Source: Rhynchobatus australiae
Lineage: Eukaryota
Direction of reading: 5' to 3'
Assembly: GCA_034780895.1 (NCBI GenBank)
Contig: JAUZTB010000087.1
Location: 104,834,152-104,898,151 of the forward strand
DNA: 64,000 bases
The notes below the pieces were generated by a model. That model saw only the letters and a list, made by a program, of their open reading frames with translations, was not told the origin of the DNA and made no database searches. A program made the translations under genes and the position numbers. Positions 12,720-63,922 of this stretch are shown in pieces. Position 1 is the stretch's first letter. Each line of letters starts with the position of its first letter.

Positions 12720-12880
12720 CGTGTATCCTTTCCTCCACTCTTTCTCCCCATCTCAAACCCTGCTTTATCTCTGACTTTAACCCTTCTGATGAAGCATCAT
12801 TGATCTGAAAGGTTAACACTGCTTTTCTCTCCACAGATGCTCCTGATCGACAGAGAATTTCTGGCAATTTTTGTGATCAT
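12720..12880 (+). mobile_element. Decayed Penelope-derived terminal repeat with hammerhead remnant
   Basis: CTGATGA-AGCATCATTGATCT-GAAAGGTTAAC at 12786-12817, preceded by a C/T-rich tract and followed by TTCTCTCCACAGATGCT. Confidence 0.65.
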
Positions 12881-13139
12881 TTAGCTTGGAGAGGGACTGA
12901 GAGAGAAAGTCTGTAAAACCAAAATGGTAGTGACATCAGTGGTAATAAGATAATGAGAATAGATCTATTAATAGATGATGAAGACTATCTACAAAGATGT
13001 CTCAATTTGTTCTTTGCTATATCTAGTATTTTAATCCCTTGTTTGTAGGAACAATTCTTACTGAACTATTTTTAAGTATAAGAGAGATATCAATAGTAAT
13101 TATGTTTCAATCAAGTTGCAATGACTTTAAATATGTATA

Positions 13140-15200
13140 TCTCCTCCTCAGGCAGTCCCTTAGGATGGAGGATGACTTGTTTCCACTGCAGTTTTGTGAG
13201 TTACGAGATGGTTCATTGAATAGTTGTACAGCATGGGAACAGGCCATTCAGCCCAACATATCCACACTGACCAGTAGGCACCCTTCCATATTAATCCCAC
13301 CACTCAGGACTTTGTCCACCCTAAGTGATTCAAGTGTTCATATGGACACTTCTTAAATGCTGTCAGCCACCCAGCATCAACCACTCTCTCAGCCAATGCA
13401 TTCCAAGTACTTACTGCACTCTGGATTAAGAAGGTCCCTGTTATATCCCCTCTAAATATGTCCTCTTTACCCTAAACCTATACTTTCTAGTTTTATCTAC
13501 ATCTAATAGGGAAAATAATNNNNNNNNNNNNNNNNNNNNNNNNNNNNNNNNNNNNNNNNNNNNNNNNNNNNNNNNNNNNNNNNNNNNNNNNNNNNNNNNN
13601 NNNNNNNNNNNNNNNNNNNCATCTAATAGGGAAAATAATTCTGCATTCTACCATAATTATACCGTTCATAATTTTAATTCTCTCAATCATGTCCCCCCTT
13701 AACCTCCTCTGCTCCAGGGAAAACAGATACAGCTTCTCCAGTCTCTCCTCATAACAGAACTGCTCCATCCAAGGCAACATCCTGGTGAACCTCCTCTGCA
13801 CCATCTCTATCACATCCTTCCTATAGCATGGTGACCAGAACCACACACAGAGCTCCAACTGAGGTCTGATGAAGGTTTTATAAAGTTGGAGCATAACCTC
13901 CCTACTACTGTATTTAATGCCTGAGTAATGAAGCCAGTATCCCATATACCTTCCTCACCATGTTATTTACCCGTGTTGCCACTGCCAAGGATATATGGAT
14001 GTGTACTCCAAGATCCCTCTCTTCCTCAATACTCCCTAAGCACCCGGCCATTCATGGTCTATGTCCTAGCCTCATTAATGCTTCCAAAATGCATTGTCTC
14101 ACATTTCTCTGGATTAATCTCGATCTGCCATTTTCTAGCTCAATTCACCAACACGTTGCTATCTCTCTGCAACTTAAGATACCTTCTACATTATCAACCA
14201 ATCATCATCATATCTGCAAAGTTACTAATCATACCTCCCACATCCACATCATTTACATATATTACAAACAGCAAGGATCCCAGCACTGATCATAAAAACA
14301 GCCCTCTACCATCACCCTCTGTCTTGTATTGCCAGGCCAATTTTGGATCCAGTTTGCCCACTTGTCCTGGATCCCATGGCTGCTAATGTTTTGAACCATT
14401 CTCCTACGTGGGATCTTGTCAAAGGCTCCATGAAAGTCCATGTAAGTCACATCTACTGCCCTGCCCCCTCATTGGTACACTTTGTTACCTCTTCGAAAAA
14501 CTTCAATCAAATTGGTCAGACAGGATCTGCCCTTGACAAAGCAACATTGGCTGTCTCTGATTAGTCCCTGTTTTACAAAGGGTTAATGAGGCTGCAGGGG
14601 GAACTGTAGCCGCTTGCACAGTTAGTGCGAGAAGTATCTGGTGGGGTTGGTGTGGAGATAGTTTGTGAGGTGGTGCATCCCTTCCATCACTTACCTATGT
14701 CTTCTGTGTACTCCTGATGCATGAATATGAGATGCAAAATACAATCCAAATGTTCCTCCTCCACTTTAGCCAGAGATTCCCAGGAGTCAGTGGGGATGGT
14801 GCATTTCTTCAAGGGGGCTTTGAGCACATCCTTGAAACTTTTCCTGTGTCCGGCTGGTAACTTCTTCCCAATGATGGACAGAATGGAGTGAGTGTTTCAA
14901 GAGCGTTCAAGAGTTCAAGTGTTTCAATCAGGGAAACAAATGATGTGGTTGGCCCAACATAACTGACCAAGAGGTCTCAGGAGGTCTCAGTGCTGGGACT
15001 GTTGGCCTGGAAGAGGACAATGATGTTAGTCCACTAGTGAGTTTGGAAGATCTTGCAGAGATAGTATCAGTGGTATTGTTCCAGTGCGTTGAGATGCCCG
15101 TTGTCGGTAATCAGTGTCTCAGAGGCATTCTTGAGACCTTGATCTTCAATAACTTTTTCCTCAATTAACCAAAGACAGTGCTGGCACACTGTAACAATGG
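13140..15200 (-). mobile_element. Decayed RTE LINE 3' part, interrupted by the CR1 at 13215-14575
   Basis: Tail CTCAGGCAGTCCCT...GATGACTTG at 13147-13210 resumes near 14582. 14770-14870 resembles 10160-10260 and 31965-32060. Confidence 0.6.
13215..14575 (-). mobile_element. CR1 LINE fragment (RT to 3' end), nested in an RTE
   Basis: ORF remnants YMDFHGAFDKIP, WIQNW..TRQRVMVEG and [31 protein letters not shown]...LFSLEQRRLRGDMIE. Confidence 0.88.
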
Positions 15201-16779
15201 GACAACCCCACAACGCCATCCGTGATACATCTTAGCCCTGAACATTCCCGGTGAAGCCAGGAAGGTCATTTACACTAACCTTGTTAAAATCTTGTTCTTC
15301 TGCTAGTTTATGCTGGATGAACGTTCATCTGAGATGGCCTGGGGTATGTTGTTCACTTCACACGTTTCACTCAAATAGCAGCATTTCAATTAATCCCAAC
15401 CCAAAGAACAAATGATTTAAAATTGGACCAGCTTCTTAACACAGAAGTGTGACAGCAAAGTACTGGAACCAGATAATGACTTTTTCCTGAGCAGTTCCCT
15501 CTTGTCCATTTACACCCAGTGGGTTAGAGTGGGACTGGCAGAGATGTGAGAAAGTTGGTGAGAGGTGGTTGTGAGGCACGAGGGTCAGAACAAATGGGCG
15601 AAACGATATGTTGTTGTGAACTGCTGACGGAGAAACTGCTCCAAGTCCTCGCAGCCGACCTCAGAGATTGAGGGTAACTGTGACTGTTGGAGACACTCTC
15701 TGTGGAGAGAGGATGCATTGCCATTGGAAGTCACCAATGCCACAACCAGCGGTGACAGAGTGGTATATTTAAGCAGTTAACTCTCGCTCACTTCAGCAGA
15801 CAGTAGCAGTAATTCCTGCCAAACGGCCTCGTCTTCCCTCAGCAAAAATATGCAGAAATAAAGTAAGATGAATATAAGACGGCCAATTCCTAAATTGGTT
15901 CAAATACAGATAAACATGAATCAAATTCTGGTGGCTGCATTCTTCTGGTTATAATTTTAAATAATCTACCCGTGGTTGTAATTTTCGCATCTGTTTTCTT
16001 TTCCTTTGCTTCACCCGTTTCAGGTCTGCATATCTGAACGAGGTTCTGTTCCATCAGTTCGGGAACACCGGCTTCCCCGCATCTTAACCCATCAGTAAGT
16101 CCCTACAAGTTGCCAACCTTGGCTGTCAAGAGTCAGTCCATCCTAGTCTTGGCAGCTCCGTTCATCCCGCCATCGGCAGAATTTTGGGAAGAAAGTATTG
16201 CAAGTTTTCCGCTGGACTTTGTGCAAATAAAAACGTCCCAATTTCNNNNNNNNNNNNNNNNNNNNNNTGTCGATGTAAGATGGTAAGTGATGGACGTTGA
16301 AACGCCAGGATCAAACATCCACTGGCGCGTCGGTCAAGTGCAGAAAATTACCCCGTGACACATCTCCAACAATATGTTTCGTTTTCTCCGACATACCTTC
16401 TCCGGTTAACGAGCCCGCACAAAGATAATTCATTAAAACAAAAATATATTTTGGGGCGTGCGGTGATATTTGGTGTCCATTAGTTTCAAATCACGAAGAG
16501 TGAATTACAGACTCGCATTTCATAATACCTGGTGAAGACCATTTCAGATCACTTCAAGAGAGAAAAGACTATGTTCCCTTAGTCTGGGCAGGATTTGAAC
16601 CCACCGTAGGAACTCACCTCTCTGAAGTGCACTATATGAACAGACCAGTCAGATTCTGCCTCGCCAGTTTTTAACGGTGCAACTCTTATATCTTTAAAAA
16701 TTAGATATCAGTTTGCAAATGACTGAAATATAGCACATAACTGCAAAAGAAAAGATTTACAATTATGACCTACTTTGAA

Positions 16780-17155
16780 CAGAAGCCTGATAACTAACCT
16801 AGTAATCTGGGGGCTTGGGTTAAGGCTCTGGAGATACGTCTAAATCTTAATGCAACATCTGGTAAATATGAATTTAGTTAATTAAATAATCCTAAACTGA
16901 AAAAAATATATATCAGTCATGCACTAGTGGCTTATTGTAAAGCCCATCTGGCTCATTAAAGTCCTTTGGGGAAGGAAATCTTCCCTGATTAGCCAGTTTG
17001 ACCTATATGTGACTCGAGTCCCAAAGAACTGTGATTAATTCCTAACTTTTGGAATGACCTAGAAAGTCACTTTGTTGAGTGTGGCTCACCACCATCTTCC
17101 TGGTTTGAACTGGGGATGGGCATTGAACAGATGCATCCCACAAGGGAATAAAAGA
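16780..17155 (+). mobile_element. Decayed shark-type SINE with a LINE-derived tail
   Basis: Core TTGTAAAGCCCATCTGGCTCATTAAAGTCCTTTGGGGAAGGAAATC and tail GCTCACCACCATCTTCC...GGGGATGGGCA. A related copy lies on the minus strand at 4185-4870. Confidence 0.55.
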
Positions 17156-18013: not shown

Positions 18014-18338
18014 ACCAGGCTCAAGGACAACTTCTATCCCACTGTGATAAGACTATTGAATGGTACCCTTATACATTGAGATGGACTCTTGACCTCACAA
18101 TCTACCTCGTTGTGACCTTGCACCTTATTGTCCACCTGCAATGCACTTCCTCTGTAGCCGTGACACTTTACTCTGTATTCTGTTATTGTTCTTTCCTACC
18201 TGTACAACCTCAATGCACTCTGTATTAACTCAATATATCTGCACTGTGTAATGAATTAATCTGTACGAATGGTATACAAGACAAGTTTTGCACTGTACCT
18301 CAGTACAAGTGACAATAATAAACTAATACCAATACCAA
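18014..18338 (+). mobile_element. Rex1/Babar-type LINE 3' end
   Basis: Begins with sequence encoding TRLKDNFYPTVIRLLNG (the RLKNSF.P.AIRLLN C-terminal motif), then a 3'UTR ending AATAAAC-(AATACC)n. Its tail is near-identical to 1-100 and 41815-41917. Confidence 0.75.
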
Positions 18339-18900: not shown

Positions 18901-20329
18901 TAAGTCAGTGCTCCTTCTCTGTGAGACTGCTAAAATAGTAAATGGTTTGTAATCTGGATGAGCACCATGATTATATGAGCCTCTAAACTTTCTTGTGGTA
19001 TCACTCAATTGGTAGCATTCAAGGCTCAAAGATTTATGAGTAAAAAATCTAGGTCAACAATCTAAAATGGCACTGAATGATTGGTTTACTCTCACACATA
19101 TTCTTTCTTGGACGAGATGTTAAACCAAGTCTGCAATGGGGTAACACATCACTGACACAATTTTGAAGAAGAACCANNNNNNNNNNNNNNNNNNNNNNNN
19201 NNNNNNNNNNNNNNNNNNNNNNNNNNNNNNNNNNNNNNNNNNNNNNNNNNNNNNNNNNNNNNNNNNNNNNNNNNNNNNNNNNNNNNNNNNNNNNNNNNTG
19301 CCAGTTTAAAGTTAAAATTTTCTTTCAAGTAGCAATGCATTACCATGTTTGACATTTTACTACAGTTCAACAGGTGGCCAAAGAACAGCTTGGCACAATA
19401 CAACAAATTACAAGCAGCAGAGGTGGGCCCTTGGGTATAAATTCTCAACATTGCTTAAAAATTTTGCATTCAGGCTCTTTGCTCAGTTTTGATAGGCCAT
19501 TTCCATTTAAAACATGTAAATCAATCTGGATTGCTGATATCATGAGCAATTTTGTGACTTAAATCTAAATTTATTCCTGAAACATAACTCATACCTTAAA
19601 ATTCTCCTGTAGATGAATGAAATGTTTAAAGCATTACATATAAAGAAATGCAAGTAAATTTTCAATCTTGATTTCAAAGGTGAAAGCTCAAATGAGTTGC
19701 AATCTTCATTTTATATTTTAGGAATGCAACTTTTATGATTAGAGGAGGCTATGTTTCACTTAACATATTACTTGTGCTGCAAAGTGCACAATGCCTCTTT
19801 TCTGGTTACTGTGCACAAATTTGCTTCATTGATTAAAAATTCTCCATCTGAGGCATGGAGTGCATTTTGAGAGATGTGATCTGTGGACTCCAGTTGGAAC
19901 CTTTCTGTCTTGGAAAGGGTGCACACTCAGCAGGTAGTGAAGGTGACAGAGTTAATGTAGTGATCAGAAATGCATGTCATTTATTATATCATGCAGATTT
20001 GCTGTTTTCTTTTTTGTTCAATCTTAGTGGTGCATTAGGAAATGAATATTTGTCTATGCTTCATAATATAATTGCAGACAGGGATAGATATTTAGCCTCC
20101 CACCACTTAATTAGTTCATGAATGATGTGTACCTTAATCTCCAATTACCTGCCTTTACTCCACAATTCCTTGATACTTTTACCTAAATATCAATATTTTG
20201 AAAGCTCCAGCTGTCCTATCTATCTGGAGGGGAGCTCCATTTGCCTGCTGTTTTTGATGTGAACAGTGCTTCATAATTTTTGCTAATCTCCAAATGGGTA
20301 TTGACCAAAGATCAATCAATCTGTGAAGA

Positions 20330-20765
20330 AAAACAGAAAATACTGGAAATACTCAGTAGGTCTGGCAGCATCTGTGGAGAGAGAAACAGAGTTAATGTTC
20401 CAGGTTCATGAACTTTCATTATCATCCCAAAGAAAGATTATCAGCATTTTCTATTTTAATTACAGATTTACAGCATCTGTAGTTTTTTGCAGATGAAAGG
20501 TCATCATCCTGAAATATTGCCAGTGTTTCTCTCTCCACAGCTGCTGACTGACCTGCTGAGTGTTTCCAGCATTTTCCATTTTCTGTTTAATTTCAGATTT
20601 CTGTCAAATTGTTTTTCCATCAAATTCTTGGGGAGTTTGATGACAAGCCATGGACCTGAAACACTGATCGTGTTTCACACTCTGCAGATGCTGACTGGTC
20701 GTGGAGTCTTACAGCATGGAAACATGATCTACTGGATACTTCCAACATTTTCTGTTTTTGTGTCT
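20330..20765. mobile_element. Cluster of three decayed short Penelope-derived elements (one minus, two plus)
   Basis: Minus copy at ~20330-20420. Plus copies start near 20490 (CAGATGAAAGGTCATCATCCTGAAATATT) and 20637 (TTGATGACAAGCCATGGACCTGAAACAC), each followed by a CTCTCCACAG/GCTGACTG-type body. Confidence 0.65.
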
Positions 20766-20799
20766 ATAAATCTGATATTGTGGTAGAAGGTGTAATATG

Positions 20800-21390: not shown

Positions 21391-22914
21391 AATGTTGCCA
21401 GTTATTAACNNNNNNNNNNNNNNNNNNNNNNNNNNNNNNNNNNNNNNNNNNNNNNNNNNNNNNNNNNNNNNNNNNNNNNNNNNNNNNNNNNNNNNNNNNN
21501 NNNNNNNNNCAATACTCCAAATGCAGCCTCACCATTGTCCTGTAATGTTGCCAGTTATTAACCAACTGGTGAAAACAAGGACGTTGGAAATAAAGTATTT
21601 TGCTATAACTTAAATACGCCTTGGAACCTGGCAACAAGATGTAAGTAGTGTTTAAAAAAGAGCATTGCTTTGAACCAGAGGGAAAGGATACTTGAGTGAA
21701 AATGTTGCAAGTGTAACCATCTGGCTGGAGACGGTGAGATTTCTTCCAGACAGGGGCTGAGAAAGGGTTCGGTTTGGAACTAACCCGCAGATCACATTAG
21801 CATGTGAAAAGTAAAAAGACACTTTGATCCTTCATTTCAAAATCTGAGGGTCAAAATAAAGATTGGACAGGTCGCGGCTTAACACCTAGTGTACAAATTA
21901 TTTTGTTCAATGGGTCAACCGATCAGATTAGGAATCTTAAAAAAAAACAAATTAATAATGAAGCGACGAAAACTAAAGTAAAAAAAAACTTGAAAACAAA
22001 CTGCAGTATGCAATTGTGGGATTCGACTAATCTCCCGACTTCCCCATTTGTAAAATATCGGGTGAGGTTGGGAATATAAACGGCAGCAGAAATGAGTGCT
22101 GAGGGAGCAGTACATCTGGTGAAAAGCTGCGCATTCTTGAGCTAATTCTGCACCAATGCGCCATCTATGTCGGAGAAATTTGGGAGACTACAGGTCACAT
22201 TTCGCTCCATTAAAACTTAAGAAAATTGGACGCGTATTTGTAGCAATTCTTATCATTTCCAACTGGCAACTCAGTTAGTCAGTCCAGTTTCTCTTACAGG
22301 CTGTCCGCCTGCGTTTCGATCAATAGACATGTAGAAATAAAAGATAAAATGACGTGTTAATAATTCAGTACAATATTAATTCTATTTTATGAAAAACTAG
22401 GATATGAAATACCAGAAATGTGGGGTTATCACTTGAAAGAGGGCGTGAAGTTTGATGGAGAGCATTCTTTGAACAGCACATTTCGCTGAGATTTTCCTTT
22501 CCAAATATTCATTCTCCATTCCTAGAACAGGCATCTCTCTCATCTCCACAACCATTTTTGCTTTGGTTTATTCTGTAACCCGCTCACTTCTCTGCTGCAA
22601 CAGTCAGTTGCTGATTGTCCCATGAGACTGCATATAATGTTCTTTACATTCTGGCATTTGCTGCTGATATTTCACGTTTTATTTATCTGTTTTGTTNNNN
22701 NNNNNNNNNNNNNNNNNNNNNNNNNNNNNNNNNNNNNNNNNNNNNNNNNNNNNNNNNNNNNNNNNNNNNNNNNNNNNNNNNNNNNNNNNNNNNNNNTATT
22801 CTATGTTACATTGGGGACCAAGGAAATAGTTTTATTTATCTGTTTTGTTTTTGACGAGGATTTAAAAACAGCGCCCTGCAATGCACGTAAACGACTGTAA
22901 AAGTAGTTTCTTAC

Positions 22915-23422: not shown

Positions 23423-24729
23423 CTGTTTGAGAAACAACATCGTGTATCAGCAGTGTTCAAACCATTTCAGTTGTTAACTGTAGTTGGTGAAAGCTACTAG
23501 ACAGAAACATTATGTTTCACTGTGAGGACAGATTTATGACGGATCGTCCGTTAATAACTAGCAAATTCTGCAGAAAAAATATTTGCGGAATTTTCACTTT
23601 ATTATTCGGCGACGCGCGGTGATTCGTTTCGTTCACCCTTATTTGCGCGAGGAAATATTTTCTATATATTTGACATAGATTGTGCATAGCTGCTGCTGAA
23701 CCTGCAACACCGATATGAAACCGAGTGGCTTGGTTAAAAACTGTGTGCATGTTTGGGTACGTTGTGTATCAATGTGTCTCAGCAGCGTTTAATGCTTTAT
23801 ATAAATTGTTTTTTTTTGTTTGCGTATTGTGTTTTTATTGATGATAGTATTCGTGCTCATGTCTCCATGGTTGTGGACAGATTGTGTTCGTGTGATGTAT
23901 ACATGTGTATGTATTTTGCTGAACATGTAGGTGTGTAATGTGATATGTTGGTGCTCATGGAGTGCATCTGTGTTCATGAGGCGCGTATGTCTACTGTGAA
24001 TTGCATCAAAGGAATCGTGTTAATCAATCCTTGGTTATAATATGAACACATGAATTTAAATGACTGTAAGGTGGTATATGTGCTCCTTGCTACACTTTGG
24101 TTACAACTGAGTTCGAATTCGTTGCCCTTATTGGTCTAGGAGTGACCGGAGCCTTTGACGACAGCCCCGGTTCACCCCCGCTCTCTACAAAACTCGTCCA
24201 GTCGAACAGTCCGGTAAGTTTAACTCTGAGGTCCTCGCGTACCTTTCTGTTGGCAGTCCCGACGGTTCACATAGGAAACTGTGCACCAACATAAACATAA
24301 GCAGAGATTGCGTTAGGTTTTGAAAAGGAGACCGACCTCTCTTCGCCCTCAGGACCCACACGTACATTGTTCTCTCTGGCCTGTTGTTAGACCGCACTTG
24401 CTATTAACATTGCGGAGCAACACACAAATGAGCTGGAGGAACTCAGCGGGTCAGGCAGCATCTATGGAGGGAAATGAACATCGCAGTGCTGCCGCCGGTA
24501 AATTTCATCCCTTGCTGACTGGTAACCTACATTGCCACAATCTAAATAGCATGGGTTTGGCGTTGTAGAAAACTGTTCTACTCTATTAAAGGATTTTCCT
24601 GTTGACTTTGTGTGCGAGATATTCTGTATTACTTATTCGTGTGTGAAGTGAGTATGAAATGGTTGCGAGACGCAGTTAAATGGGGGATGGCTGACGCACA
24701 GTAACATATTGCATCTGCATCTGTGCATT

Positions 24730-25125: not shown

Positions 25126-26479
25126 CCGAATTCAGTGCAGTTGGTGTGTGCGCAGGAGGCGGGTGGGAGAAAGGATGCTCTGACCATGTAGGTGGTTAGT
25201 TTTTAACGTGCAAGTGTGTTCTACCTGTGGCGCATGTTTCTGTACACAAGTACACAAGCTGAAACACAGAACCTTTCACATTTGCAAGCTTGCCACGTAC
25301 GTGTGTTGGGTTTTGGCATATGCAAATTATGCAAGTACTATAAGTGATCTGTGGGTTAATGAGTCGTTGCACGGACATTTGCATCGTCTCCGCTTGCTGT
25401 TTTACATCTCCAAGTAATCTAAACTCAGCCATCAGGTAATAGTCTGACCAATCCTCTCCTCATGACTATTTATGTCCCAGTCACTGGGCGGGGACGAATG
25501 GTCTCACTTCTCTGCGTAACTGTTTTATGTCAATGAAGTTGATCAGATTCCGATGGAATCACTCAAGACCATGGGGATGTCAAGTCTCTCATTTGAGATC
25601 GCGTTGGCACATGCTGATTGCACCTGAAAAGGAGGCAGCCCCACAACCAAGGGGAAGGCCATCAGATAAACACAGAGAGAAGGAAACACCCAACCAATGT
25701 CCGTCGACGGCATTCGAAAGACTAATGATGTAATTGGATTGCGGAGAAGTTGCAGGCAGCTCTACGGCGAACGATTTAACGTTGGAATTATTTATGTGGA
25801 TCACATCATCAATGCAGACGACTGCTGGAATCATTCTGTTGGAACCNNNNNNNNNNNNNNNNNNNNNNNNNNNNNNNNNNNNNNNNNNNNNNNNNNNNNN
25901 NNNNNNNNNNNNNNNNNNNNNNNNNNNNNNNNNNNNNNNNNNNNNNNNNNNNNNNNNNNNNNNNNNNNNNNNNNNNNNNNNNNNNNNNCTGACCAAGTAC
26001 TTAAATAAAACCAGCAACAGGTGTTGCTGTTGTATTTCTAACTACTTCTAATTCCGCCGAAAGTTTATCCACCTGAGGCATGAAGCGGTTCAGTCACTGC
26101 AGACGCTGCCCGGCCCGCTGAACATTTTCAGTGTCCTCTGGTGTTAATTTCCAATTTCCTTTTCACCTGGAGTATTTTGCAGGTCAGCCCGGCTAAACGA
26201 CTGAACGAGGCTAAATTCCCTTCATGAATGATGGCCCTTCATGGATTTCTCAGCAAACGATAATTGCTGAGGTCTGGATGTGATAAATAGCCTCCTCCTG
26301 AGCCGTGACAATTCTACGATATTTCATAAAAAAACCCGCTGCCCCTCTCAGAGTGAGCCGATGGCAGGTACACGAGCATTTAGAATCACCCGGAACTCGC
26401 AAGACAGTGGAACAGCCCCGAGTCCCACCTTCAGCACCAGGTCGGTAGCTGGGCGGGTCGTAGTTCTTCAATGACACGA

Positions 26480-27780
26480 CCCAGGGTTTATTTTTAACGT
26501 GCGGAGCGTTTCTGTCTCCACTACCGTTTCACGCAGAGTTCCAGATCCCAAACACCTTCTGGGAGAAAACACATTTCTTCATCTCATTCTAAACGCTGTT
26601 CGAAATCGACGTACCTATGTATTTGTCCCCTCTACCAAGAGAAACAGGGCTTCCTAATTGTATACACGGCAATTACATCTCCCCTCAATCACCTCTGTTC
26701 CAAAGAAACCAATCGCAGCCCCTCCAATCTATTGTCAAATCTCACAACTTCCAGTCCTGGGAACATCCTCTGCACCCCGTCCAATGAAATTGCTTCTTCC
26801 TTGTCATGTGGTGACCAGAACTCTGTATAGTTTTGACCCATCTAGCGTTATAGATTCTTCCAGACTAACCTTCCTGCTCTTACAAGAAAGAAAGAATCCC
26901 ATATGTCTTTCCTGCCATCTCAATGAGCTGCCTTGCAACTTAGAAGGATTTCTGGAAATACATTCAGAGTACCTCCTTTTCTTCCACACCTCGTCGTATC
27001 GATTAGTGTGTTGTGTAACTCAAAAGCAAATAAAAAAACCTGAAAATGCCAGAAATCTGAAATTAAAACAGGAAATGGAAACACTCACGAGGTCAGGCAG
27101 CACCTTTGGAGAGAGAAACCAAAGTTACCGTTTCAGGTCGTTTAATTCGCTGTATCGCACACATCGCCAAATTGAATTCATTTTGCTTCCTTTCTGCCCA
27201 ATTTACCAGACAAACTTAACTTTCTGCAAGTTACAGCCTTTCTACTGACTGTCAACCACACAGCCAGTTTTCGAATCATCTGAAAACTTCGCTTTCATGT
27301 TCGTTACATTTAAATCTAAGTCATTAATATATGTGACATAGAAAGCAAGGACTGAGTACTGAACTCCGTGGAATCCCACTGGTAACAGCGTTTCCGTACC
27401 AAACATAAAATTAACCATTAGCGTTTTGTCACTGGGCTAACTTTGATTTTCTCTCTTCCTTGGATTCCACGAATTTATATTATTTGACCAGCTAACTGTA
27501 TGGGATCTTGATGAAAGCCATGCCAAAACCCTTGTTGACCATGTCAAATGTACTCTGCCCCTTATTATACCTCTTCTAAAAAAAATCAATTAATCAATTA
27601 ACCTTAACAAATCCATACTGACTGAGCTGGATTAAACTGCTCCTTTCAAATGATTCCGATCATTTTCCACCATCAGAATTATACTAACTGCCCTGAACTT
27701 GCTCAATTTATCTCTTTCTACCTTTTTATACCACGCGATGTTATTAGCACCCCTTGAATTCTCTGTAGCCAGGAAAAATT
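26480..27780 (-). mobile_element. Old decayed CR1 LINE fragment(s)
   Basis: Remnant KSRKVSLEESITLDGSKLYRVLVTT..., a CR1-like RT region further right, and a short Penelope-type insert at ~27030-27140. Confidence 0.55.
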
Positions 27781-28034
27781 GGAAAAAGAGTTTGCCGCCA
27801 AAAAAAAATGTTCTGCTGAATACAGTTTAGGATTCCTTGCCCTTTATGCATTTTTACACAAATTGCATCCCAATTAATTTTAGGGCAATTAAATTCATCC
27901 CCCCGCCCCACTATTACTACTCTATTGGTTTTGCAATTGCCAGAAGTTTGCTCGCCTATCTCCTCTGGTCTATTTGGCAGTGTATATTATCTTCCGGCAG
28001 GGTGCTTGAATTCAACCCAGAGGTAGCTTCAGTT

Positions 28035-28780
28035 TGATCAGAAATCAAACTCCAGGAAGAACTCAGCGGGGTGAGCAGCATCTGTGTGTGTGTGTGTGTG
28101 TTTGTGTGTGTGTGGTGGGGTGGGTGTTGGGTGGTGGTGGTGATGGGGTGGTGGGGGGTGGGGATGGTTGGGGTGGGTGGGTAAANNNNNNNNNNNNNNN
28201 NNNNNNNNNNNNNNNNNNNGAGCGCCGGTATACAGAAGCGGGGGAGGGGTTTTGGTGAGATAGTGGGTGATAGGTGGACGGAGGAGGGGCGAGGGATGAT
28301 GGACAGAAGGGGTACAGAGGCAGGAGGGTTATAGGTGGGAGCAAACAAGGTATAAAGAGGCAGCTGGGCCCAGGTGGCGGGTGGGGAGGGTGGAGCCAGT
28401 GACTAGGGGGTGATAAGTGGGGACGCGAAGGCTGCAAGTGCTGGAATCTGATCATTAGGAAGGTGATAATAGGAATCATTAAGGGAGAGATGAAAGGCAA
28501 GTGGAACCAGATGGGGAAGGGGATATGGTTGGTGAAGTGTGTGGGGAGTAGGTGGATGGAAGCAGGACGTGGAGGGGGACGAAAATCGGTGGTGGCTGGA
28601 GGGAGGGGTACGGGAATCGGAACAAAAACAGAGGGACCGTAGGTGAATCGGAAGGATAATGAGTGGGTGGGGGGAAGGGGGCATAGGAGGTAAGGGTTAC
28701 CTGAAACTGGAAAATTCAATGTTCACACCATTGGGTTGTAGACTACCCAGGCGGAATATGAGTTGCTGTTCTCGAACCTC
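28035..28780 (-). mobile_element. Penelope-like element 3' end (GIY-YIG endonuclease C-terminus, pyrimidine-rich UTR, terminal repeat)
   Basis: 28780-28697 translates EVREQQLIFRLGSLQPNGVNIEFSSFR*, resembling the E..I..L..L.P.G.N end of Penelope GIY-YIG domains. A C/T-rich UTR follows, then the same CAGATGCTGCTCACCCCGCTGAGTTCTTCC body as the short elements. Confidence 0.75.
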
Positions 28781-29799
28781 ATTTTGATGATCCCTGTAAC
28801 ATATCATCCCTTCACAAGATTTTAAAAGTCAATATCGCCTCCTCCTTTCGTTTGTATTACCCTCTCTCTGTCTCGACAAAACGCCTTATACGCAGGATCG
28901 TTAAGCTTCCATACCGGCCCTCTTTAAAGGAAAAAAAAGACTGCAGGTGCTGGAATCTAGATGAAAAACACGATGATGCTGGAGGAACTCAGCAGGCCGG
29001 GCATGGTCCTCACTGGCCTCGTTTGCCCGGCCCTGCGCTCTTTGAGCCGCGTTTCAGCAATAGTTGCAATATCATACTTTTACATCTCATCTGGTTTAGT
29101 CTTTACATTTAGGTAATTAAACCTAAATACGGCGAATGCAGGCATTGAAAGGAAATGTCTGGAAAACTATACATCTTTTTTTCGATCCCAAAAGGAGTGT
29201 TATAATGCAGTATCAGAAAATAAACAACACAAAGAATTTTTTCTCCGCTGGTCAAGGGAGTGAGAATGTTACAGGTTCTGGATCTTAATTTATATGACTT
29301 CTATAAGATGAAAATGCCAGGAATATTGTCTGCGAGGAGCCATAATGCACCCCATGCTCACTATAAATTGAAAAGGACTAATTAATTTTAGGAACACTTT
29401 AGATCTAGCGCGGTATGGATTATTATTCTAATATAACCTTTGGGTCTTTCCATTACTGGCGTTTAGATTGAGTGCATTTTGTGGGCCAATAATCCGCAAC
29501 ACTTCTCGACTAATAAGATTTCAGAATCGACATAGACCTGAATGCGCTCTAACAAATGGCGACTACTTTGCATGGCACTTAAAGTAATGTGAAATTTCCA
29601 CTGTTGCCGGGACAGAGAATTACGTATTCTGGTATTGCAATCTTGGCTCCTTGTTGCGTTCTGACAGAATTTCTCTGTGATCAAGTGTGAAGTATTTCTG
29701 GTCAAATGTGTCGCGCTGCTACTTGCTAACCTTGTATTGTGAAACGCTCTCGGTACCAGGATAGAAGCAGTTACCATCAGAATGTTTAAATCAACGGGA

Positions 29800-34919: not shown

Positions 34920-36530
34920 TGAGTAACAAGAGGATGACTAGGGTGAAGAAGGGTCATGACCCGAAACGTTGACCACCTGCTTTTCTCCANNNNNNNNNNN
35001 NNNNNNNNNNNNNNNNNNNNNNNNNNNNNNNNNNNNNNNNNNNNNNNNNNNNNNNNNNNNNNNNNNNNNNNNNNNNNNNNNNNNNNNNNTGACCCGAAAC
35101 GTTGACCACCTGCTTTTCTCCACGGATGCTGCCTGGTCTGCTGAGTTCCTCCAGCATCATCGTGTTTTACATCTGCTTGAGGAACAAGAGGATGACTAGG
35201 GTGAGGGTAGGACCGCTCAGGATAAGGGGGGAAATGTGTCTGGAGGCGAAGGAGGTAGGGGAGATCCTAAGTAAATATTTTGCTTCAGTGTTCACCAGGG
35301 AGAGGGTACGTTTAGCGTAAAACAAACAAATGTGTTGGAGCATGTCGAGGTTAAGAAAGAAGCAGTGTTGGAGCTACTAAAAATCGTTAGAATAGATAAG
35401 TCCCTGGGGTTGGACAGGATATACCCCAGGTTACTATAGGAGGTGAGGGAAGAGATTGCTGGAGGGTTTACAATGATCTTTTGAGTCCTCCCTGGCCACA
35501 GGAGTGGTACCAGAGGATTAGAGGATGGCAAATGTTGTTTCATTGTTCAAGAAAGGTCAAAGGGATAATCCCAGGATTTATAGACCAGTGAGTCTTAACA
35601 TCAGTGGTGGGCAAACTATTGGAGACTATTCTGAGGGACAGGATTTGTGAGCATCTGGACAAGCATAGTCTTATTAGGACAGTCAACATGGCTTTGTGAA
35701 GGTAGGTCGTGTCTCAGGAACCTAATAGAGTATTTTTGAGGAAGTGACAAGACAAATTGGTGAAGGAAATGTGGTGGATGTGGTATATACGGATTTAGCA
35801 AGGTGTTTGACAAGGTTCCCTATGGTAGGCTCATTCAGAAAGTCATGAGGTATGGGATCCATGGAAGATTGGCTGTGTGGATTTGAAATTGGCTTGCCCA
35901 CAGAAGGCAGAGGGTGGTTGTAGAAGGGGAGTATTTGACCCGGAGGTTGGTGACTAGTGGTGTTCCACAGGGATCTGCTCTTTATGATTTTTATAAATTA
36001 TTTGGATGAGGAAGTGGAAAGATGGGTTGGTAAATTTGCAGATAACCTGAAGGTTGGTGGTGTAGTAGATAGTGAAGAAGGTTGTCCTAGGATACAACGG
36101 GATTTAGACAGGAAGCAGAGCTGTGCAGAGAAGTGCTGAATGGAGTTCAATCCAGAGAAGTGTGAAGAATGAACTTGAAGGTGGAGTACATGGTTAATGG
36201 TGGGATTCTTAGCAGTGTGGAGGAACAGAGAGATCTTGGGGTCGAAGTACATAGATCCCTCAAAGTTGCCACATAAGTGGATAGGGCAGTTCAGAACGCA
36301 TATGGTGTGCTGGCCTTCATTAGCTGAGGGATTGAGGTCAAGAGCTCAGAGGTGATGTTGCAGCTCTATAAGGCTCTGGTTAGACCACACTTGGAATATT
36401 GTGTTCAGTTCTGGTCACCACATTGTAGGAAGGACGTAGAAGCTTTGAATGGGGATAAGGTTTATTTCGGTTGTCACAACATGGTGGGCTGAAGACCCCG
36501 TATTGTGCTGTACTGTTCTATGTTCTACGT
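34920..36530 (+). mobile_element. CR1 LINE fragment (linker and RT, internally deleted, with 3' tail)
   Basis: Remnants KRMTRVRVGPL, EILSKYFASVFTRE, DKSLGLDRIYPRLL, YRPVSL, DFSKVFDKVP, FINYLDE..KFADNLK and [19 protein letters not shown], with stops and frameshifts. Tail TGTACTGTTCTATGTTCTA. Confidence 0.9.
34944..35177 (+). mobile_element. Short Penelope-derived hammerhead element inserted in a CR1 fragment (spans a gap)
   Basis: TGAAGA-A-GGGTC(AT)GACCC-GAAAC-GTT-GACC, body GATGCTGCCTGGTCTGCTGAGTTCCTCCAGC. Flanked by a 27-bp direct repeat (34920-34946 and 35178-35204, one mismatch). Confidence 0.72.
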
Positions 36531-36949: not shown

Positions 36950-37310
36950 AATAAGGCCATAAGATACAGGAGCAGAATTAGGCCATTTGCCCCATCCAGT
37001 CTGCTTGGCCATTCAATAATGGTTGATTTTTTAAACTCCATTCCCCGTCCTCGCCCTGTAACCATTAACCCTCTTACCAGTCAAGAACCTTTCAATGTCT
37101 GGCTTAAATACACCCAATGACTTGGCCTCCACAGCCCTCTGTGGTAACGAATCCCACAGATCCACCACCCTTTGGCTGTAGAAATTCCTCCTCATCTCAG
37201 TTTTAAAGGGACGTCCCTTTATTCTGAGTCTGTGCCCTCGGATCCTCCATTCTCTTACAAATTGAAACATCCTCTCCACGTCCACTCTATACAGGCCTTT
37301 CAGTATTCAG
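36950..37310 (-). mobile_element. CR1 LINE 3' end (younger family)
   Basis: ORF MDVERMF...RGHRLRIKGRPFKTEMRRNFYSQRVVDLWDSLPQRAVEAKSLGVFK, same family as 57165-57415. Confidence 0.9.
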
Positions 37311-52182: not shown

Positions 52183-53949
<1,767 letters not shown>

Positions 53950-53950
<1 letters not shown>

Positions 53951-54700
53951 CACTCACTTTCACTCATTCACTAACTCTCCAGTTCAATATCTCACTCACT
54001 GTCTCTCTCACTCACTCGCTGTCTCACTCACTGTCTCTCTCATGCACTGTCTCATTCACTGTCTTTCTCAATCACTGTCTCATTCATTGTCTCTTTCACT
54101 CACTGTCTCTCTCACTCACTGTCTCATTCACTGTCTCACTCACTGTCTTACTTACTCACTGTTTCTCACTCACTGTCTCACTCACTGTCTCTCTCATTCA
54201 CGGTCTCTCTCACTCACTGTCTCATTCATTGTCTCTTTCACTCACTGTCTCTCTCACTCACTGTCTCATTCATTGTCTCTCTCACTCACTGTCTCATTCA
54301 TTGTCTCTGTCACTCACTGTCTCATTCACTGTCTCACTCACTCACTGTCTCACTCACTCTCTCTCACTCACTGTCTCACTCACTCTCTCTCACTGTCTCA
54401 CTCATTGTCTCTCTCACTCACTGTCTCACTCACTGTCTCACTCACTGTCTCTCTTACTCACTGTGTCTCTCACTCACTGCTTCACTCTTGTCTCACTCAC
54501 TGTGTCTCTTACTCACTGTCTCATTGTCCCTCTCACTCACTGTCTCACTCACTCTCTCTCACGCACTGTCTCTCTCACTCGCTGTCTCTCTCCCTCAGTC
54601 TCCTTCACTTAGTAGTTGAATGTCTCACTCATGCACCGTTCCACTCAATTTCACTCACTTATTTCCTCATTGGTTCAACGTCCCAGTCAATGTCTGATAT
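53950..54700. repeat. Compound (CACT)/(CACTGTCT) minisatellite
   Basis: Dozens of CTCACTCACTGTCT-type units with variable CT and CATT spacers. It accounts for the low-complexity ORFs 54042-54737 and 54229-54612. Confidence 0.95.
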
Positions 54701-56500: not shown

Positions 56501-58980
56501 CCATGGAAGATGGCAGTTCAATTTGGGGAGACCTTTTAAGAGTATGAACTCTTTGGCTTTATATGCAGACAGTGTCAAAACAAAGGAGTAATGTTAAACA
56601 TAATGCATCATTGGTCAGGACCCAACTGAAGTACTGTATTTGATCCAGTCTCTGAAATAATTTAAGGTCTTTGAGAGCACATGGGAATATTTGGTAAAAG
56701 GTTACTAGAAATCCTGGAATTCAGATGGAAAATCTGTGTTGACATCTTGAGAGCAGAGAAAAATGACTATGGATTTAACAGAAGGGTTCAAAATCATTTG
56801 ATTTTGATAGTGTATACAACAACAGCTTAAACATTGTGCCTTTCATACAGGTGAATGATGCAAATTTGAAGGACTGTTAACATGTAAAATTTAAGACTGC
56901 GACACAAAGAGGTATTAGGACGGGTCTGTTCCCTGCTCTGTCATGCAAGTTTTAAGTAGTTTCTCTACAGAGGAGAGGATGGAAGAAAGGCAAAGAATTT
57001 GGGAGGGATTTCCAGAGCTGGAGTCCAGGCAGCTGAGGGAATGTTCTCCAGTGATGATACATAATAAACAGGACTGGCATGGGCAAAAGCCCAGCACTGG
57101 AGGAACACAGAGATCTCAGTAGGCTGTAAAAATTAAGAATAGGCTAGGCCTTGGAGAAATTTCTGAGGAGGAATTTCTTCAGCCAGAAGGTGGTGAATCT
57201 GTGGAATTCATTGCCACAGACGGCTGTGGAGGCCAAGTCATTGGGTATATTTAAAGTGGAGTTTGGTAGGTTCTTGATTAATAAGGGTGTCAAAGGTTCT
57301 GGGGAGAAGGCAGGAGAATGGGGTTGAGAGGGGAAAATAAATCAGCCGTGATTGGATGGCAGAGCAGACTCGATGGGCCAAATGGCCTAATTCTGCTCCT
57401 GTGTCTTATGGTCTAAATATAAAAGTAGAATGAGAATTGAAGAGTAAGTGTAGGTAAGTGAACCTGTGAATGCACAGGAATCCTCAGAGCTAATGTAGAT
57501 TGTAGGTTAGTAGTAGAAGGCAGAGATTTAATATAGTTGACAAAAGAACCAGTGTTGAAAAGAGGATGATTTATTTTACCCAATTACCCAATGGAATATG
57601 CTGCCTGAAAGTGTGGTTGAAACTGATTCAATAATAACTTTCAAAAGGTAATTGGATAAACACTGTAAGTGAAAATATTTTCAATGTTGTGGTGAAAGAA
57701 TGTGAGTCTTTTTTACTTTTGGTACAAGCAGGATGGGTTGTTCTGGTCCCTTAGTTGCATCATGCTATGACTCCATATTGTAATCTTGGGAATTGCTATA
57801 TTGATGGTAATCTGTACATTAATATTTCTGTCAAGTGTTTGGTCTTTTGTGTTGCAAATAATGCTTGCAATTTATTGATTTTAATCACTCTTCTTGTAAT
57901 TTCAACTGGGCCACTGACTCTCAGATACCATCATCTCACCCCGCCAGCGCCCCCCCCACCCCATGCTCTGGTATCAAATCTTTGGATGGTTTTCTGTGTT
58001 AATGATGCTAAATAAACGTCAGACAAAGGATAGACAATGGTAGGATGACAGAAGGTCGAATTTTGAAGATATTAGCCATTTCGTTCTTCAAGAATGTTTG
58101 ATATGTTACCAAATGGGGGATTACAGCTAAGGCCAGGACATGTCAAAACAGGGGACAGATTGTAGGATGGGTTATAACTGGTTATAAAACAGAAACCAAA
58201 ATAGAGGAGGAGATGACGATAATTATTGTAACTGGCTGAAGCGATGTTCCAGAAGAATTAAAACCGAGATCTGCTTTAATGCTGTTTAACGTTTATATAA
58301 TGGATTAAATGTGAGAACTGGAAGTACAATTTCCAAATGTCCAGGCTACAGAGAACTGCGAATTATAATTAGTACCGAGGAGGGCTGTGACAGGCTACAG
58401 GGAGTCAACACATTTTTTGCACACTGGTTACAAACAGAAATCAGTGTGAATATATGTGTACTGATGCATTTGGTAGAAAGAACAAGGACTCCATATAGGA
58501 AATATGTAGCTCAATGGGTTAGGGGAGCAGAGGGATCTGAGGGTGGAGTAATAAAAATAAGTAAAGACTGTAATGCAGATTTATAACTCCCCGAAAAGGC
58601 AAACAGTTATGCTAAATGTATAAAACATTCGCTTTGACCTGACTTGGAATAGTTCTGCTTTTTATATTATTAAAAAAATGCTACGGGGGCTCTAGGGTAG
58701 GTGTAAAAACAATTTAATAAAAAAAGCTTAAACGGGCTCTAGAACAGAAGGGGCTGAAAGATGACCTGATTCAAAAATAGTGAACTTAAGGGAGGGTTCT
58801 TTATCCAGACAGGCAGGGATTTTGAACCTCTGTCATAGGTCGCTAATAAAGGCAAGGATAGAATCAGTGTTAGATAAAGGATAGCAATTGATGTGGGTCA
58901 GACGAAGAAAAACTGGAGGAAGTTTGTATGGATCATAAGGATCTGCAAGGCTTATTGGATTGAACGGCCTGTTCCCGCAA
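56070..58980. mobile_element. Patchwork of old CR1 and L2 fragments
   Basis: CR1-like pieces at ~56070-56290, 56550-56810, 57500-57770 and 58100-58980 (plus). L2-like piece at ~56810-57150 (minus). All highly decayed. Confidence 0.5.
57165..57415 (+). mobile_element. CR1 LINE 3' end (younger family)
   Basis: GAGGAGGAATTTCTTCAGCCAGAAGGTGGTGAATCTGTGGAATTCATTGCCACAG...GGCCTAATTCTGCTCCTGTGTCTTATGGTCT. Confidence 0.88.
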
Positions 58981-60447
58981 CCATAAAGCGAAATGCAGCA
59001 GATGATGAAACTCTGAAATTAAAGCAGGAAATGCTGTTAATAATCAGCAGGTCTTGGTGCTTTAGATGCCACGTAAGGCCATGTAATTTGTTATGTCATT
59101 GCTTATTATATTGCAAATGTAAGCTTTACATTATTAATTAATACGATCAGCTAAATTATAGTATCAGAAGGTGACTGAGATAGTACCATTACGTGACTAT
59201 CTTTTTCTTAATGAAATTATCTGACTGATGTTTTTATAAGGCCTCGTTCTGATGTGATACTGTGCCTTTGACCTGGCGCTTTCTGATTACCCGTAATTAT
59301 TTTTGTTAACGCCAGATCCAAATGATTGCTCCAAGTGAATTCTGAATGACAGACTGCGGGTGTGAACGCGGGACTTCGCCACAATTGTTTGGTAGCAATG
59401 AGAAGGCGAAGAAAGTTGCAGCCCGATGGAGTTCCTTAGGTATGGAGAGCAGATCTCACCCTCTAGGGCAGACTATTTGAAAATCTTGGAGTAATTCATT
59501 CCAGCAGTACATCTGCACGACCCAGGATTACGCAACCTTCTACTTACGTTGTTGCATAATAACACTACATTTTTGTTTTTTTTCAAATGTGCTGGATATG
59601 AGAAAATAAAGTTTGCAATATTTCTGTATCGAATTAAATATACATATGTCAAACCTACTATGTTGTTAGAACATCAGTGTTTCGATTCAGTAATGTTACA
59701 AGAGGAAACGAGCAGTGTAACATTTGAACTGCATTTCTTAATTGATATAAATACTGCTAAATAATATAAAAATCAGAAGTGAGAATTGGTAAATAAAAAC
59801 GGAATTCAAGCAGAAAGTGTTCCAATGTTACCACGCCAGGCTAAGTTCTATTTGGCAGACGGTGTGTTCCACTTTCTACATTTCTCCTCTGAGTTAAGTA
59901 CCAAAGTGCATAAAGAACTGGGTTTATCGGGCTGAGGTGTTTGTCGTTGCGACTTGTTACCCAAGTCTTTCAAACACTGGCGGTAAAATCCAACGAGCTT
60001 GATGCAATACGTCGATATAATAGTACACGCTCTATTTGCACTCATTCAGTCTTAATCAGAAAGAAACGCGATGACCCAGTATGTGCAAACATTCACTCCT
60101 AAGTATGCGTTCTAAAATTGTAATTCTAAATATGACCAATTTATCTTATCACCTTGCCCGCCCATTTGAATAAACGCACTCTCGTTCACATGTGTACTTT
60201 TTTAAACATGTGGACTGTTATTTTCCCGGTTCAAAATCATAAAGGGCGCAGCAAAATGAATAACATGGCATTCCGGATGCTTCGTCAATCGTCTGGGCAT
60301 TTTTATTTGTCNNNNNNNNNNNNNNNNNNNNNNNNNNNNNNNNNNNNNNNNNNNNNNNNNNNNNNNNNNNNNNNNNNNNNNNNNNNNNNNNNNNNNNNNN
60401 NNNNNNNNNNNNNNNNNNNNNNNNNNNNNNNNNNNNNNNNNNNNNNA

Positions 60448-60575
60448 GCATCGGCGCAGAGGGAAACAATGTCAACGTCTGAGTTCAAGAAGCCTTCATC
60501 AGATGGCGTTTGACCAGCTGAGAGCTTCAAGAATTTTCTCTTTTGGTTTCAGATTTCCAGCATCTGCATTTTATG
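60448..60575. mobile_element. Inverted decayed short Penelope-derived element
   Basis: Minus strand 60503-60471 reads TCTGATGAAGGCTTCTTGAACTCAGACGTTGAC. Plus strand 60511-60575 reads TGACCAGCTGAG ... TTTCAGATTTCCAGCATCTGCA. Confidence 0.6.
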
Positions 60576-63465: not shown

Positions 63466-63596
63466 GGAGACACGAGAGACTGCAGATGCTGGAATGTGGA
63501 GCAAGAAACAACCTGCTGGAGGAACCCAGCGGGTCGAGCAGCATCTGTTGGGGGAAAGGAATCGTCGACTTTTGGATCGAAATCCTGCATCAGGAC
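63466..63596 (-). mobile_element. Short Penelope-derived element (~130 bp) with decayed hammerhead
   Basis: Minus strand reads GTC-CTGATGC-A-GGAT(TTCG)ATCC-AAAA-GTC-GAC ... CAGATGCTGCTCGACCCGCTGGGTTCCTCCAGC ... CATTCCAGCATCTGCAGTCTCTCGTGTCTCC. Flanked by TTAGTTGGTTAGT and TTAATTGGTCAGT (11 of 13 match). Confidence 0.75.
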
Positions 63597-63797
63597 TTAA
63601 TTGGTCAGTTTTCATTTTTCTTTGCAATTGCCCCAATTCTTTCGATATTGACACCAAATAATTCTGGCAGCCCAACAAGTGATTGGGATACTGATGTAAA
63701 GTAAATGGTGTACCGGAGATTTCGGACGAGCGGTTGGATGCTTGTGATTTCTGTGGTTTAAGCTCTCCTGGAGGTTGGGATTTTGAAGTGTCGACTC

Positions 63798-63922
63798 TTT
63801 CTGATGAAGGCTCTTCGATCTGCAACGTAAATTCGACTTCTTTTCCACAGATGCTGCCTGTACTACTGAACAACGTTAGCATTTTCCAATTTTATTTCAG
63901 ATTTCCAGCTTCTGCAGTTTTC
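63798..63922 (+). mobile_element. Older short Penelope-derived element with decayed hammerhead
   Basis: CTGATGA-AGGCTCTTCGATCT-GCAACGTA, then TCCACAGATGCTGCCTG ... TTTCAGATTTCCAGCTTCTGCAG. Confidence 0.65.

What the first reader, a model, noticed from the sequence alone, without database searches (positions are those of the whole stretch)
12783..63922. Dispersed ~130-bp ribozyme-headed non-autonomous retroelement family (retrozyme- or SINE-like)
Seen: about ten hammerhead-like heads (12786, 20391-20420 minus, 20490, 20637, 27124-27140 partial, 34944, 40200-40233 minus, 40808, 60471-60503 minus, 63564-63597 minus, 63801), and more body-only or tail-only copies. They share the layout head - TCTCCACAGATGCTGCCTGACC(T/C)GCTGAG - CAGATTTCCAGCATCTGCAG..GTCTCC. 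Stem II varies but keeps pairing (GGGTC/GACCC at 34951, GGAT/ATCC with a TTCG loop at 63574-63585). The three best-defined insertions (40773-40911, 63466-63596, 34947-35177) have flanking direct repeats, and their hammerhead segments begin at or within the ribozyme head. Inference: the terminal repeat of a Penelope-like element has spread as a small ribozyme-bearing unit in at least two age classes. I cannot tell whether this family is already in repeat libraries.
Basis: partly seen in the sequence, partly recalled or inferred. Interest (0 to 1): 0.72.

Follow-up and report, generated by a model that had tools for sequence, protein, structure and literature searches.

The report
Truncated Penelope retroelement ends with hammerheads
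The scattered 130-base repeats are the decayed, cut-short tail ends of ordinary Penelope-type jumping genes in a shark- or ray-like fish, each with a relic of a small self-cutting RNA motif, not a separate small mobile element.

Summary
The repeat is real: 23 pieces at E<0.01 and none in the reversed control. It is best read as the 3' end (pseudo-LTR) of several Penelope-like element (PLE) families, not an independent unit. One copy is preceded by a 3'UTR and the C-terminus of an RT + GIY-YIG protein (28700-28801). A zebra shark PLE protein reads through its UTR into the translated head. In four sequencing runs, other genomic copies continue 5' of the head into one shared pyrimidine-rich sequence. 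19 of 21 3' ends fall in two classes about 25 nt apart, the optional PLE 'tail', and several loci are inverted, both PLE hallmarks. The hammerhead is the minimal type I form; its predicted cut site lies 3' of the head, so self-cleavage cannot make the 5' ends. No head passes a strict descriptor, and covariation does not beat the shuffles. Two of the three claimed target duplications beat a null. Left open: three young copies start within 7 nt of each other at the head, possibly marking the RNA's 5' end. The scan found the same kind of element before in another genome (e1-7858586).

The parts
28032..28801 (-). Longest PLE 3' fragment: last ~34 codons of an RT + GIY-YIG ORF (28801-28700, stop 28699-28697), ~610-nt pyrimidine-rich 3'UTR with an N gap and simple repeats in place of the head, then the body of the repeat (28086-28032), no tail
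63466..63597 (-). Head-body-tail copy in normal order; core mutated; body closest (76%) to the ORF-bearing copy; flanking repeat not significant
40773..40806 (-). Tail alone, inverted, at the left end of the 40773-40911 insertion
40807..40911 (+). Head and body; best-kept hammerhead (core intact, one stem II mismatch; predicted cut after 40841); 12-bp target duplication 40761-40772 / 40912-40923; a contig of organism B has the same right junction
34944..35177 (+). Tail-less copy starting inside the first core box, 27-bp target duplication, next to a LINE-like ORF fragment; the N gap with a 33-nt overlap is probably an assembly artefact
28932..29003 (-). Body-tail copy, 93% like the 35105 body
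24410..24483 (-). Tail-less body copy, 91% like the 40846 body; starts within about 1-4 nt of the predicted cut site
12720..12886 (+). Old copy with a pyrimidine-rich 5' extension (0.82 in the 60 nt before the head; 0.9% of background windows reach 0.75), probably UTR
20305..20766 (.). Compound old locus: inverted head-body (20305-20424, minus), body end + tail (20442-20489), head-body-tail (20488-20613), head-body (20638-20765)
60447..60573 (.). Old inverted pair: head on minus (60503-60447, runs into an N gap) joined to body-tail on plus (60493-60573)
40198..40335 (.). Old inverted pair: weak head on minus (40233-40198, E 0.36) beside a forward copy (40231-40335)
8360..8549 (.). Two old body pieces on opposite strands, 70 bp apart
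27033..27142 (-). Old copy starting inside stem II
26052..26179 (+). Very decayed old copy
   Evidence: E 1e-7
39900..39993 (+). Old body-tail copy
58987..59053 (-). Old body-tail copy
63799..63925 (+). Old head-body-tail copy

Best explanation
The copies are dead 3' ends of autonomous, endonuclease-bearing Penelope-like retroelements, from at least four sequence groups of different age. The element's own RT + GIY-YIG protein cuts the target, starts reverse transcription at one of two internal sites about 25-30 nt apart (end of body, end of tail), copies through the body and the uncleaved minimal hammerhead, and usually stops early. That gives pieces from 30 nt to 770 nt that share 3' ends, differ at 5' ends, and are often inverted when both target strands prime. 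The hammerhead was under selection in the source elements, not in these copies. Shown here: homology to the PLE 3' end, shared upstream UTR in other copies, two 3'-end classes, inversions, two target duplications, decay of the heads. Inferred from published PLE biochemistry: internal priming, two-strand priming, an uncleaved template.
For: ORF end: 28801-28700 minus matches the C-terminus of P0002 (20 of 34 identical), of 8 of the 9 relatives tried with tblastn and of 5 of 96 longer, mostly full-length RT + GIY-YIG proteins; P0004 (named as whale shark) has Pfam GIY-YIG above cut-off and RVT_1 below cut-off. It is followed by UTR and the body. P0006 (named as zebra shark) continues ~110 residues past the endonuclease and ends in a peptide whose best ungapped match among 127,930 six-frame positions is the head at 40813 (score 37, next 22). 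Loose ends before 40807: 147/140/30/12 contigs in X1-X4 with agreement 0.47/0.48/0.52/0.65, last 12 letters identical in 4 of 4 runs; unrelated flanks would give 0.32/0.32/0.36/0.41, 99th percentile 0.33/0.33/0.39/0.45. 3' ends: 6 of 21 at profile position 101-103, 13 of 21 at 122-130, 2 elsewhere. PMC8557442 describes 5' truncation, adjacent inverted copies and a 30-40 bp tail at either end; PMC11167929 ties the tail to two RT start sites and finds both strands extended; PMC4209133 reports minimal hammerheads mostly as single motifs, probably truncated PLEs.
Against: Only 1 of 23 pieces carries ORF sequence and only one more (12786) has a visible UTR-like extension. The ORF-bearing copy has lost its head, and a 19-nt motif from the loose-end consensus matches its UTR only at rank 126 of 12,794 windows, so ORF-UTR-head-body-tail was never seen in one piece of DNA. 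The agreement values fit only about 30-50% of contigs carrying the shared upstream sequence (my model of the statistic), so many copies may really end at the head. The rows at 40808 agree less (0.39 in X1, 0.46 in X4), and 510 loose-end rows were not shown. The second 3'-end class is bounded by the end of the profile.
Confidence: 0.85

Rival explanations
1. Same autonomous PLE source, but the ~130-nt class has a defined 5' end: RT starts at the tail site near the 5' end of the PLE RNA and runs off at a transcription start or splice junction lying on hammerhead stem I. This refines the best explanation rather than excluding it.
For: Three young copies with defined ends start at -6 (40807), -4/-5 (63597) and +1 (34944) of the first core base; 11 of 22 pieces start at the profile's 5' edge. 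The shared upstream sequence is a pyrimidine tract followed by CAG just before the core (plus window 40807-40812), which looks like a 3' splice site or an initiator (both consensus patterns recalled). In D. virilis Penelope the intron ends at the 5' end of helix I (PMC4209133) and lies 46 bp after the start site (PMC2377424).
Against: Three copies only, and the profile edge is a ceiling. No common first-exon sequence precedes the heads in the window. An RT that stalls on leaving the structured head for the C-rich UTR gives the same pile-up. CAG is also the 5' strand of stem I, which alone could explain its conservation.
Confidence: 0.3
2. A non-autonomous non-LTR retrozyme: a ~145-nt monomer that is transcribed, self-cleaved, circularised and copied by PLE proteins; the dispersed copies would be its monomers.
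For: One tail-to-head junction at 20489/20490 and a further head 147 bp on. bioRxiv 10.64898/2026.07.22.740005 finds retrozymes in 1 of 1 cartilaginous fish sampled and derives them from PLE pseudo-LTRs.
Against: No tandem repeat of the unit. The two junctions at 20.5-20.6 kb differ by about 20 nt and neither head has an intact core. Copies extend into UTR and ORF. Four or more sequence groups are 49-76% alike between groups. The published definition needs two consecutive units with complete hammerheads.
Confidence: 0.1
3. A SINE with an internal Pol III promoter that borrowed a PLE 3' end.
For: Size, high copy number and target duplications at two loci.
Against: No tRNA gene in the window, no Rfam family at gathering score, the one B-box match lies outside all copies and is at chance level; the whole length is accounted for by PLE-end sequence.
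Confidence: 0.03

Closest known systems
Minimal type I hammerheads in the pseudo-LTRs of metazoan EN+ Penelope-like elements (Cervera and De la Pena 2014, PMC4209133)
   Same: Core boxes, one extra base before stem II, 4-5 bp stems I and II, no stable stem III with a palindromic junction, several sequence groups per genome, mostly single or opposite-strand motifs from truncated copies.
   Different: The parts of that paper read here (parts 1-2 of 4) name bony fish, coelacanth, Xenopus and reptiles, not cartilaginous fish; its supplements were not seen. No copy here is an intact ribozyme.
Poseidon element PAc of Anolis carolinensis (Frangieh et al. 2024, PMC11167929)
   Same: Hammerhead about 100-130 nt upstream of two 3'-end classes that define an optional tail; templates need not be cleaved; both target strands can be extended.
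   Different: PAc is Poseidon. The shark relatives found here carry a CX4CxxC linker, which PMC8557442 gives for Neptune/Nematis; that region is not in the window. Whether body and tail begin the ORF here was not shown.
Non-LTR retrozymes of animals (Cervera and De la Pena 2020, PMC7229834; Li et al., bioRxiv 10.64898/2026.07.22.740005)
   Same: Type I hammerhead, PLE pseudo-LTR origin, dispersed monomers, long target duplications.
   Different: Retrozymes are tandem arrays of 150-450 bp units with a complete hammerhead in each; here the copies are single, truncated or inverted, and run on into PLE UTR and ORF.
Twin-priming inversions of L1 (Ostertag and Kazazian 2001; seen only as a passage and a reference in PMC2246262)
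   Same: 40773-40911 splits one unit into an inverted and a forward part that overlap by 5 nt, inside one target duplication.
   Different: The split falls on the PLE's own inner 3'-end class (position ~100), so it may use the two native RT start sites rather than chance microhomology.

Membership tests
EN+ Penelope-like element (3' fragment) | Single ORF with RT and C-terminal GIY-YIG endonuclease | tested here: met
   Only the last ~34 codons lie in the window (28801-28700); they match RT + GIY-YIG proteins. RT itself is absent from the window.
EN+ Penelope-like element (3' fragment) | Hammerhead motif in the terminal repeat downstream of the ORF | tested here: met
   P0006 read-through ends in the head peptide; shared upstream UTR in other copies; body follows the UTR at 28086. 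Indirect: no single DNA piece with all parts.
EN+ Penelope-like element (3' fragment) | Optional 30-40 bp tail at either end | tested here: met
   6 of 21 ends at 101-103 and 13 of 21 at 122-130; inverted tail at 40773-40806
EN+ Penelope-like element (3' fragment) | 5' truncation and adjacent inverted copies | tested here: met
   5' starts from ORF to position 100; inverted neighbours at 8.4, 20.3, 40.2, 40.8 and 60.5 kb
EN+ Penelope-like element (3' fragment) | Partial tandem with a full-length copy; RT phylogeny and clade | not testable with these tools
   No genome held; no full-length cartilaginous-fish PLE named among the 96 long hits
Minimal type I hammerhead | Core boxes with paired stems I and II | tested here: inconclusive
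   Layout is clear at 40813, 63593 and 34943, but 0 strict matches; covariation reached by 47 of 500 shuffles, though above all six slid controls
Minimal type I hammerhead | Self-cleavage | not testable with these tools
   Needs an in vitro assay
Non-LTR retrozyme | At least two consecutive tandem units with complete hammerheads | tested here: not met
   the 20.4-20.8 kb locus has unequal junctions and broken cores (window only)
Non-LTR retrozyme | Unit-length linear and circular RNA | not testable with these tools
   No run on record as RNA, contigs only
SINE | tRNA/5S/7SL-derived head with internal Pol III promoter | tested here: not met

The most novel reading that the evidence does not exclude
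A large share of these insertions are run-off products with a fixed 5' end: the PLE reverse transcriptase starts at the internal tail site near the 5' end of its own uncleaved RNA and falls off at a transcription start or splice acceptor on hammerhead stem I. The many fossil copies would then map both RT start sites and the in vivo 5' end of a vertebrate PLE transcript, and show that the hammerhead is mostly uncut in the template.
Probability: 0.3. Interest if true: 0.45.

Novelty: new member of a known kind. Interest (0 to 1): 0.17.

Why it matters
As a system it is ordinary: hammerhead-bearing Penelope ends are published for many animals. Its use is as data. The repeat is very abundant in these genomes (thousands of contigs pile on 110 bases), so a genome-wide end map could test open points of the PLE cycle: whether the hammerhead is cut in vivo, where reverse transcription starts and stops, and how the tail comes to lie at either end. 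It also warns that short hammerhead repeats in cartilaginous fish should not be filed as SINEs or retrozymes without looking upstream.

Tried and rejected
No whole genome is held, so no genome-wide end map was made. Rfam: 0 matches at gathering score in the window; in 40700-41000 only one chance match at E 3.8. A 22-nt body pattern found 0 loci in viral and 0 in metagenome contigs. The first protein search with the 43-aa window peptide found nothing; Pfam found nothing for the 30-aa peptide; of 2 phmmer hits one (P0001, bacterial Ig repeats, no matched stretch) was dropped as spurious. No RNA holder was listed; X4 is only guessed to be RNA, so expression and circles were not tested. Depth is not a copy number and was not used as a truncation profile. 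No empty-site allele was seen; no listed contig spans the whole stretch. A match seen by eye between the loose-end consensus and the 28-kb UTR was not significant (rank 126 of 12,794). Pairwise comparison of upstream flanks found only neighbouring copies of the repeat itself; a possible 15-nt shared extension at 20421 and 20637 was seen by eye only. The idea that body and tail start the ORF (26 open codons in the 63466 copy) stayed untested: 1 of 96 long relatives had a head-like N-terminus, a chance-level pattern, and none is named as a cartilaginous fish. Head folds are no better than shuffles (z -1.7 to +0.3); the body-tail hairpin is strong in 1 of 7 copies (z -3.8). The sigma-70 promoter scan does not apply to a vertebrate. 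Self-cleavage as the cause of 5' ends at the head was rejected on geometry: the cut site lies about 28 nt 3' of the first core base. Literature: six searches showed no paper describing this family in cartilaginous fish; Repbase and Dfam could not be searched, so it may be catalogued there.
Full report
Setting. The window is vertebrate DNA, 39.9% G+C with 23 N gaps. It holds exons of a bHLH-PAS gene on the minus strand (exon starts near 52392, 23001, 17921, 5937 and 1551), by recalled motifs a single-minded gene, probably SIM2. Most repeat copies lie in its introns. The nearest named protein relatives of the retroelement piece come from whale shark and zebra shark, so the source is probably a cartilaginous fish. 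No genome is held.

The observation. A profile built from window copies finds 26 pieces, 23 at E<0.01, covering 3.2% of the non-N sequence, and none on the reversed window. They follow the minimal type I hammerhead layout: stem I 5' strand, first core box, one extra base, stem II, second core box, a short palindromic junction, the cut site, stem I 3' strand. They are decayed. No head passes a strict descriptor; 2 of 11 keep both core boxes and 2 of 11 keep four outer stem II pairs, none both. The basal pair of stem II is paired in 11 of 11 and switches between G-C and A-U across groups, but over the whole structure 78 of 500 shuffles reach the pairing and 47 of 500 the covariation score; the structure does beat all six slid controls. 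Rfam has no match. Of 19 boundary pairs tested for target duplications, two beat a null of 300 random pairs: 27 bp around 34947-35177 and 12 bp around 40773-40911; the one around 63466-63596 does not (p 0.15). The 34947 locus contains a 100-N gap with 33 identical bases on both sides, as two other such gaps have, so it is most likely a single ~100-bp copy. Body identities define at least four groups: 40846 with 24480 (91%), 35105 with 29003 (93%), 63560 with 28086 (76%), and an old group.

What it is. At 28801-28700 on the minus strand lie the last codons of an ORF that match the C-terminus of P0002 (20 of 34 identical) and of 8 of 9 relatives in tblastn. These relatives are RT + GIY-YIG proteins, and P0004 finds 96 longer proteins, most of them full-length and of the same build, 5 of which match the same window codons. 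The stop is followed by about 610 nt of pyrimidine-rich UTR and then by the body of the repeat; the head is replaced by simple repeats. Second, the zebra shark protein P0006 reads about 110 residues past its endonuclease and ends in a peptide whose best match among 127,930 six-frame positions of the window is the translated head at 40813 (score 37 against 22 for the next), which places the head at the far end of a PLE UTR. Third, contigs of four public runs from three organisms were laid on 40550-41149 at 80% likeness: 7038, 6618, 1247 and 267 contigs, nearly all on the repeat. Those that run past the head's 5' edge (147, 140, 30 and 12 contigs at 40807) share one pyrimidine-rich consensus whose last 12 letters are the same in all four runs, with agreement 0.47-0.65; unrelated flanks would give 0.32-0.41 (taking agreement as the mean majority share per column). 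So the family boundary is not the head. The same model fits only 30-50% of these contigs carrying the shared sequence; contigs through shared sequence collapse many loci into one, so this is probably an underestimate (inference), but it leaves room for many copies that end at the head. Rows at 40808 agree less (0.39, 0.46) and 510 rows were not shown.

Ends and inversions. Leaving out two pieces that end at N gaps, 6 of 21 3' ends lie at profile position 101-103, 13 at 122-130 (a class bounded by the profile end at 132) and 2 elsewhere. This is the optional tail that PMC8557442 describes as a 30-40 bp extension at either end of PLE insertions (passages) and that PMC11167929 maps between two internal RT start sites, with both target strands cut and extended and hammerhead cleavage not needed for insertion (parts 1-2 of 4 read). 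The insertion 40773-40911 shows this: head and body forward to position 104, tail inverted at the left from position 99, inside one duplication, while other copies continue from body into tail in normal order. A contig of organism B covers the same right junction, so this insertion appears older than the split of the two species. Opposite-strand neighbours also occur at 8.4, 20.3, 40.2 and 60.5 kb. 5' starts, leaving out one at a gap: 11 of 22 at the profile edge, 11 spread from 17 to 100.

How it works. An autonomous PLE protein nicks the target, primes at the body end or the tail end of its RNA, copies through the uncut hammerhead and mostly stops within 30-130 nt, sometimes reaching the UTR or ORF. 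Priming from both strands gives the inverted forms. The cut site lies about 28 nt 3' of the first core base, so a cleaved template would give copies without a head; only the 24480 copy starts near it. The priming steps are inferred from the Anolis element, not shown here.

What is left. Three young copies with defined ends start at -6, -4/-5 and +1 of the first core base. The sequence just upstream is a pyrimidine tract and CAG, like a splice acceptor or initiator (patterns recalled), and in D. virilis Penelope an intron ends at helix I (PMC4209133, parts 1-2 of 4 read; PMC2377424, passages). A run-off product from the 5' end of the PLE RNA would give a fixed ~130-bp insert without any non-autonomous family. 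Stalling at the border of structure and C-rich UTR would do the same. Three copies cannot settle this.

Comparison. Membership of the PLE group is met on the ORF end, hammerhead position, tail and inversions; the clade is probably Neptune or Nematis by the CX4CxxC linker of the shark relatives, which is outside the window. The retrozyme test of two consecutive complete units (bioRxiv 10.64898/2026.07.22.740005, parts 1-3 of 5 read, supplements closed; PMC7229834, passages) is not met in the window; the one tail-to-head junction at 20489/20490 is the only point for it. The SINE test is not met. The preprint notes that most PLE insertions are 5'-truncated with one terminal repeat and reports retrozymes in its one cartilaginous fish; its supplements may list this family. 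PMC6155905 and PMC2246262 were seen as passages only. Six literature searches showed no description of this family; Repbase and Dfam were not available. An earlier agent of this scan reached the same reading for another shark-like genome, which is not independent evidence.

Verdict. A real, abundant repeat; a new instance of a known kind; interest 0.17.

Noticed in passing
window 52392 to about 1470, minus strand: Exons of a single-minded-type bHLH-PAS gene (probably SIM2, by recalled motifs); most repeat copies lie in its introns.
   Followed up: partly
window 63466-63550, minus strand: Body and tail fold into a long hairpin (z -3.8) closed by a 9-bp stem whose 5' arm is the most conserved part of the repeat; a candidate RT binding or start structure. 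Strong in 1 of 7 copies folded.
   Followed up: partly
window 34850-35900: The 34944 copy lies directly beside a LINE-like RT ORF fragment (35192-35409, 35735-35878), probably inside it; another such fragment lies at 14364-14503.
   Followed up: no
window 13520-13619, 21410-21509, 34990-35089: Three 100-N gaps have identical 20-53 nt on both sides: unmerged contig overlaps that mimic tandem duplications.
   Followed up: yes
window 53900-54600: A ~650-bp array of 12-16-bp pyrimidine-rich units about 1.5 kb upstream of the SIM-type start codon.
   Followed up: no
window 40670-40729: A second short repeat, left of the studied insertion, draws contig depth of 50-300 in three runs; family not identified.
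   Followed up: no
window 36954-37194, 48082-48185, 57164-57414; 2-103, 18236-18337; 9936-10350, 13140-13213, 14768-14868, 31958-32150: Other dispersed repeat families (LINE 3' ends or SINEs), unrelated to the finding.
   Followed up: no
window 46197-46230, minus strand: A possible further, very weak head (E 0.35, absent).
   Followed up: no
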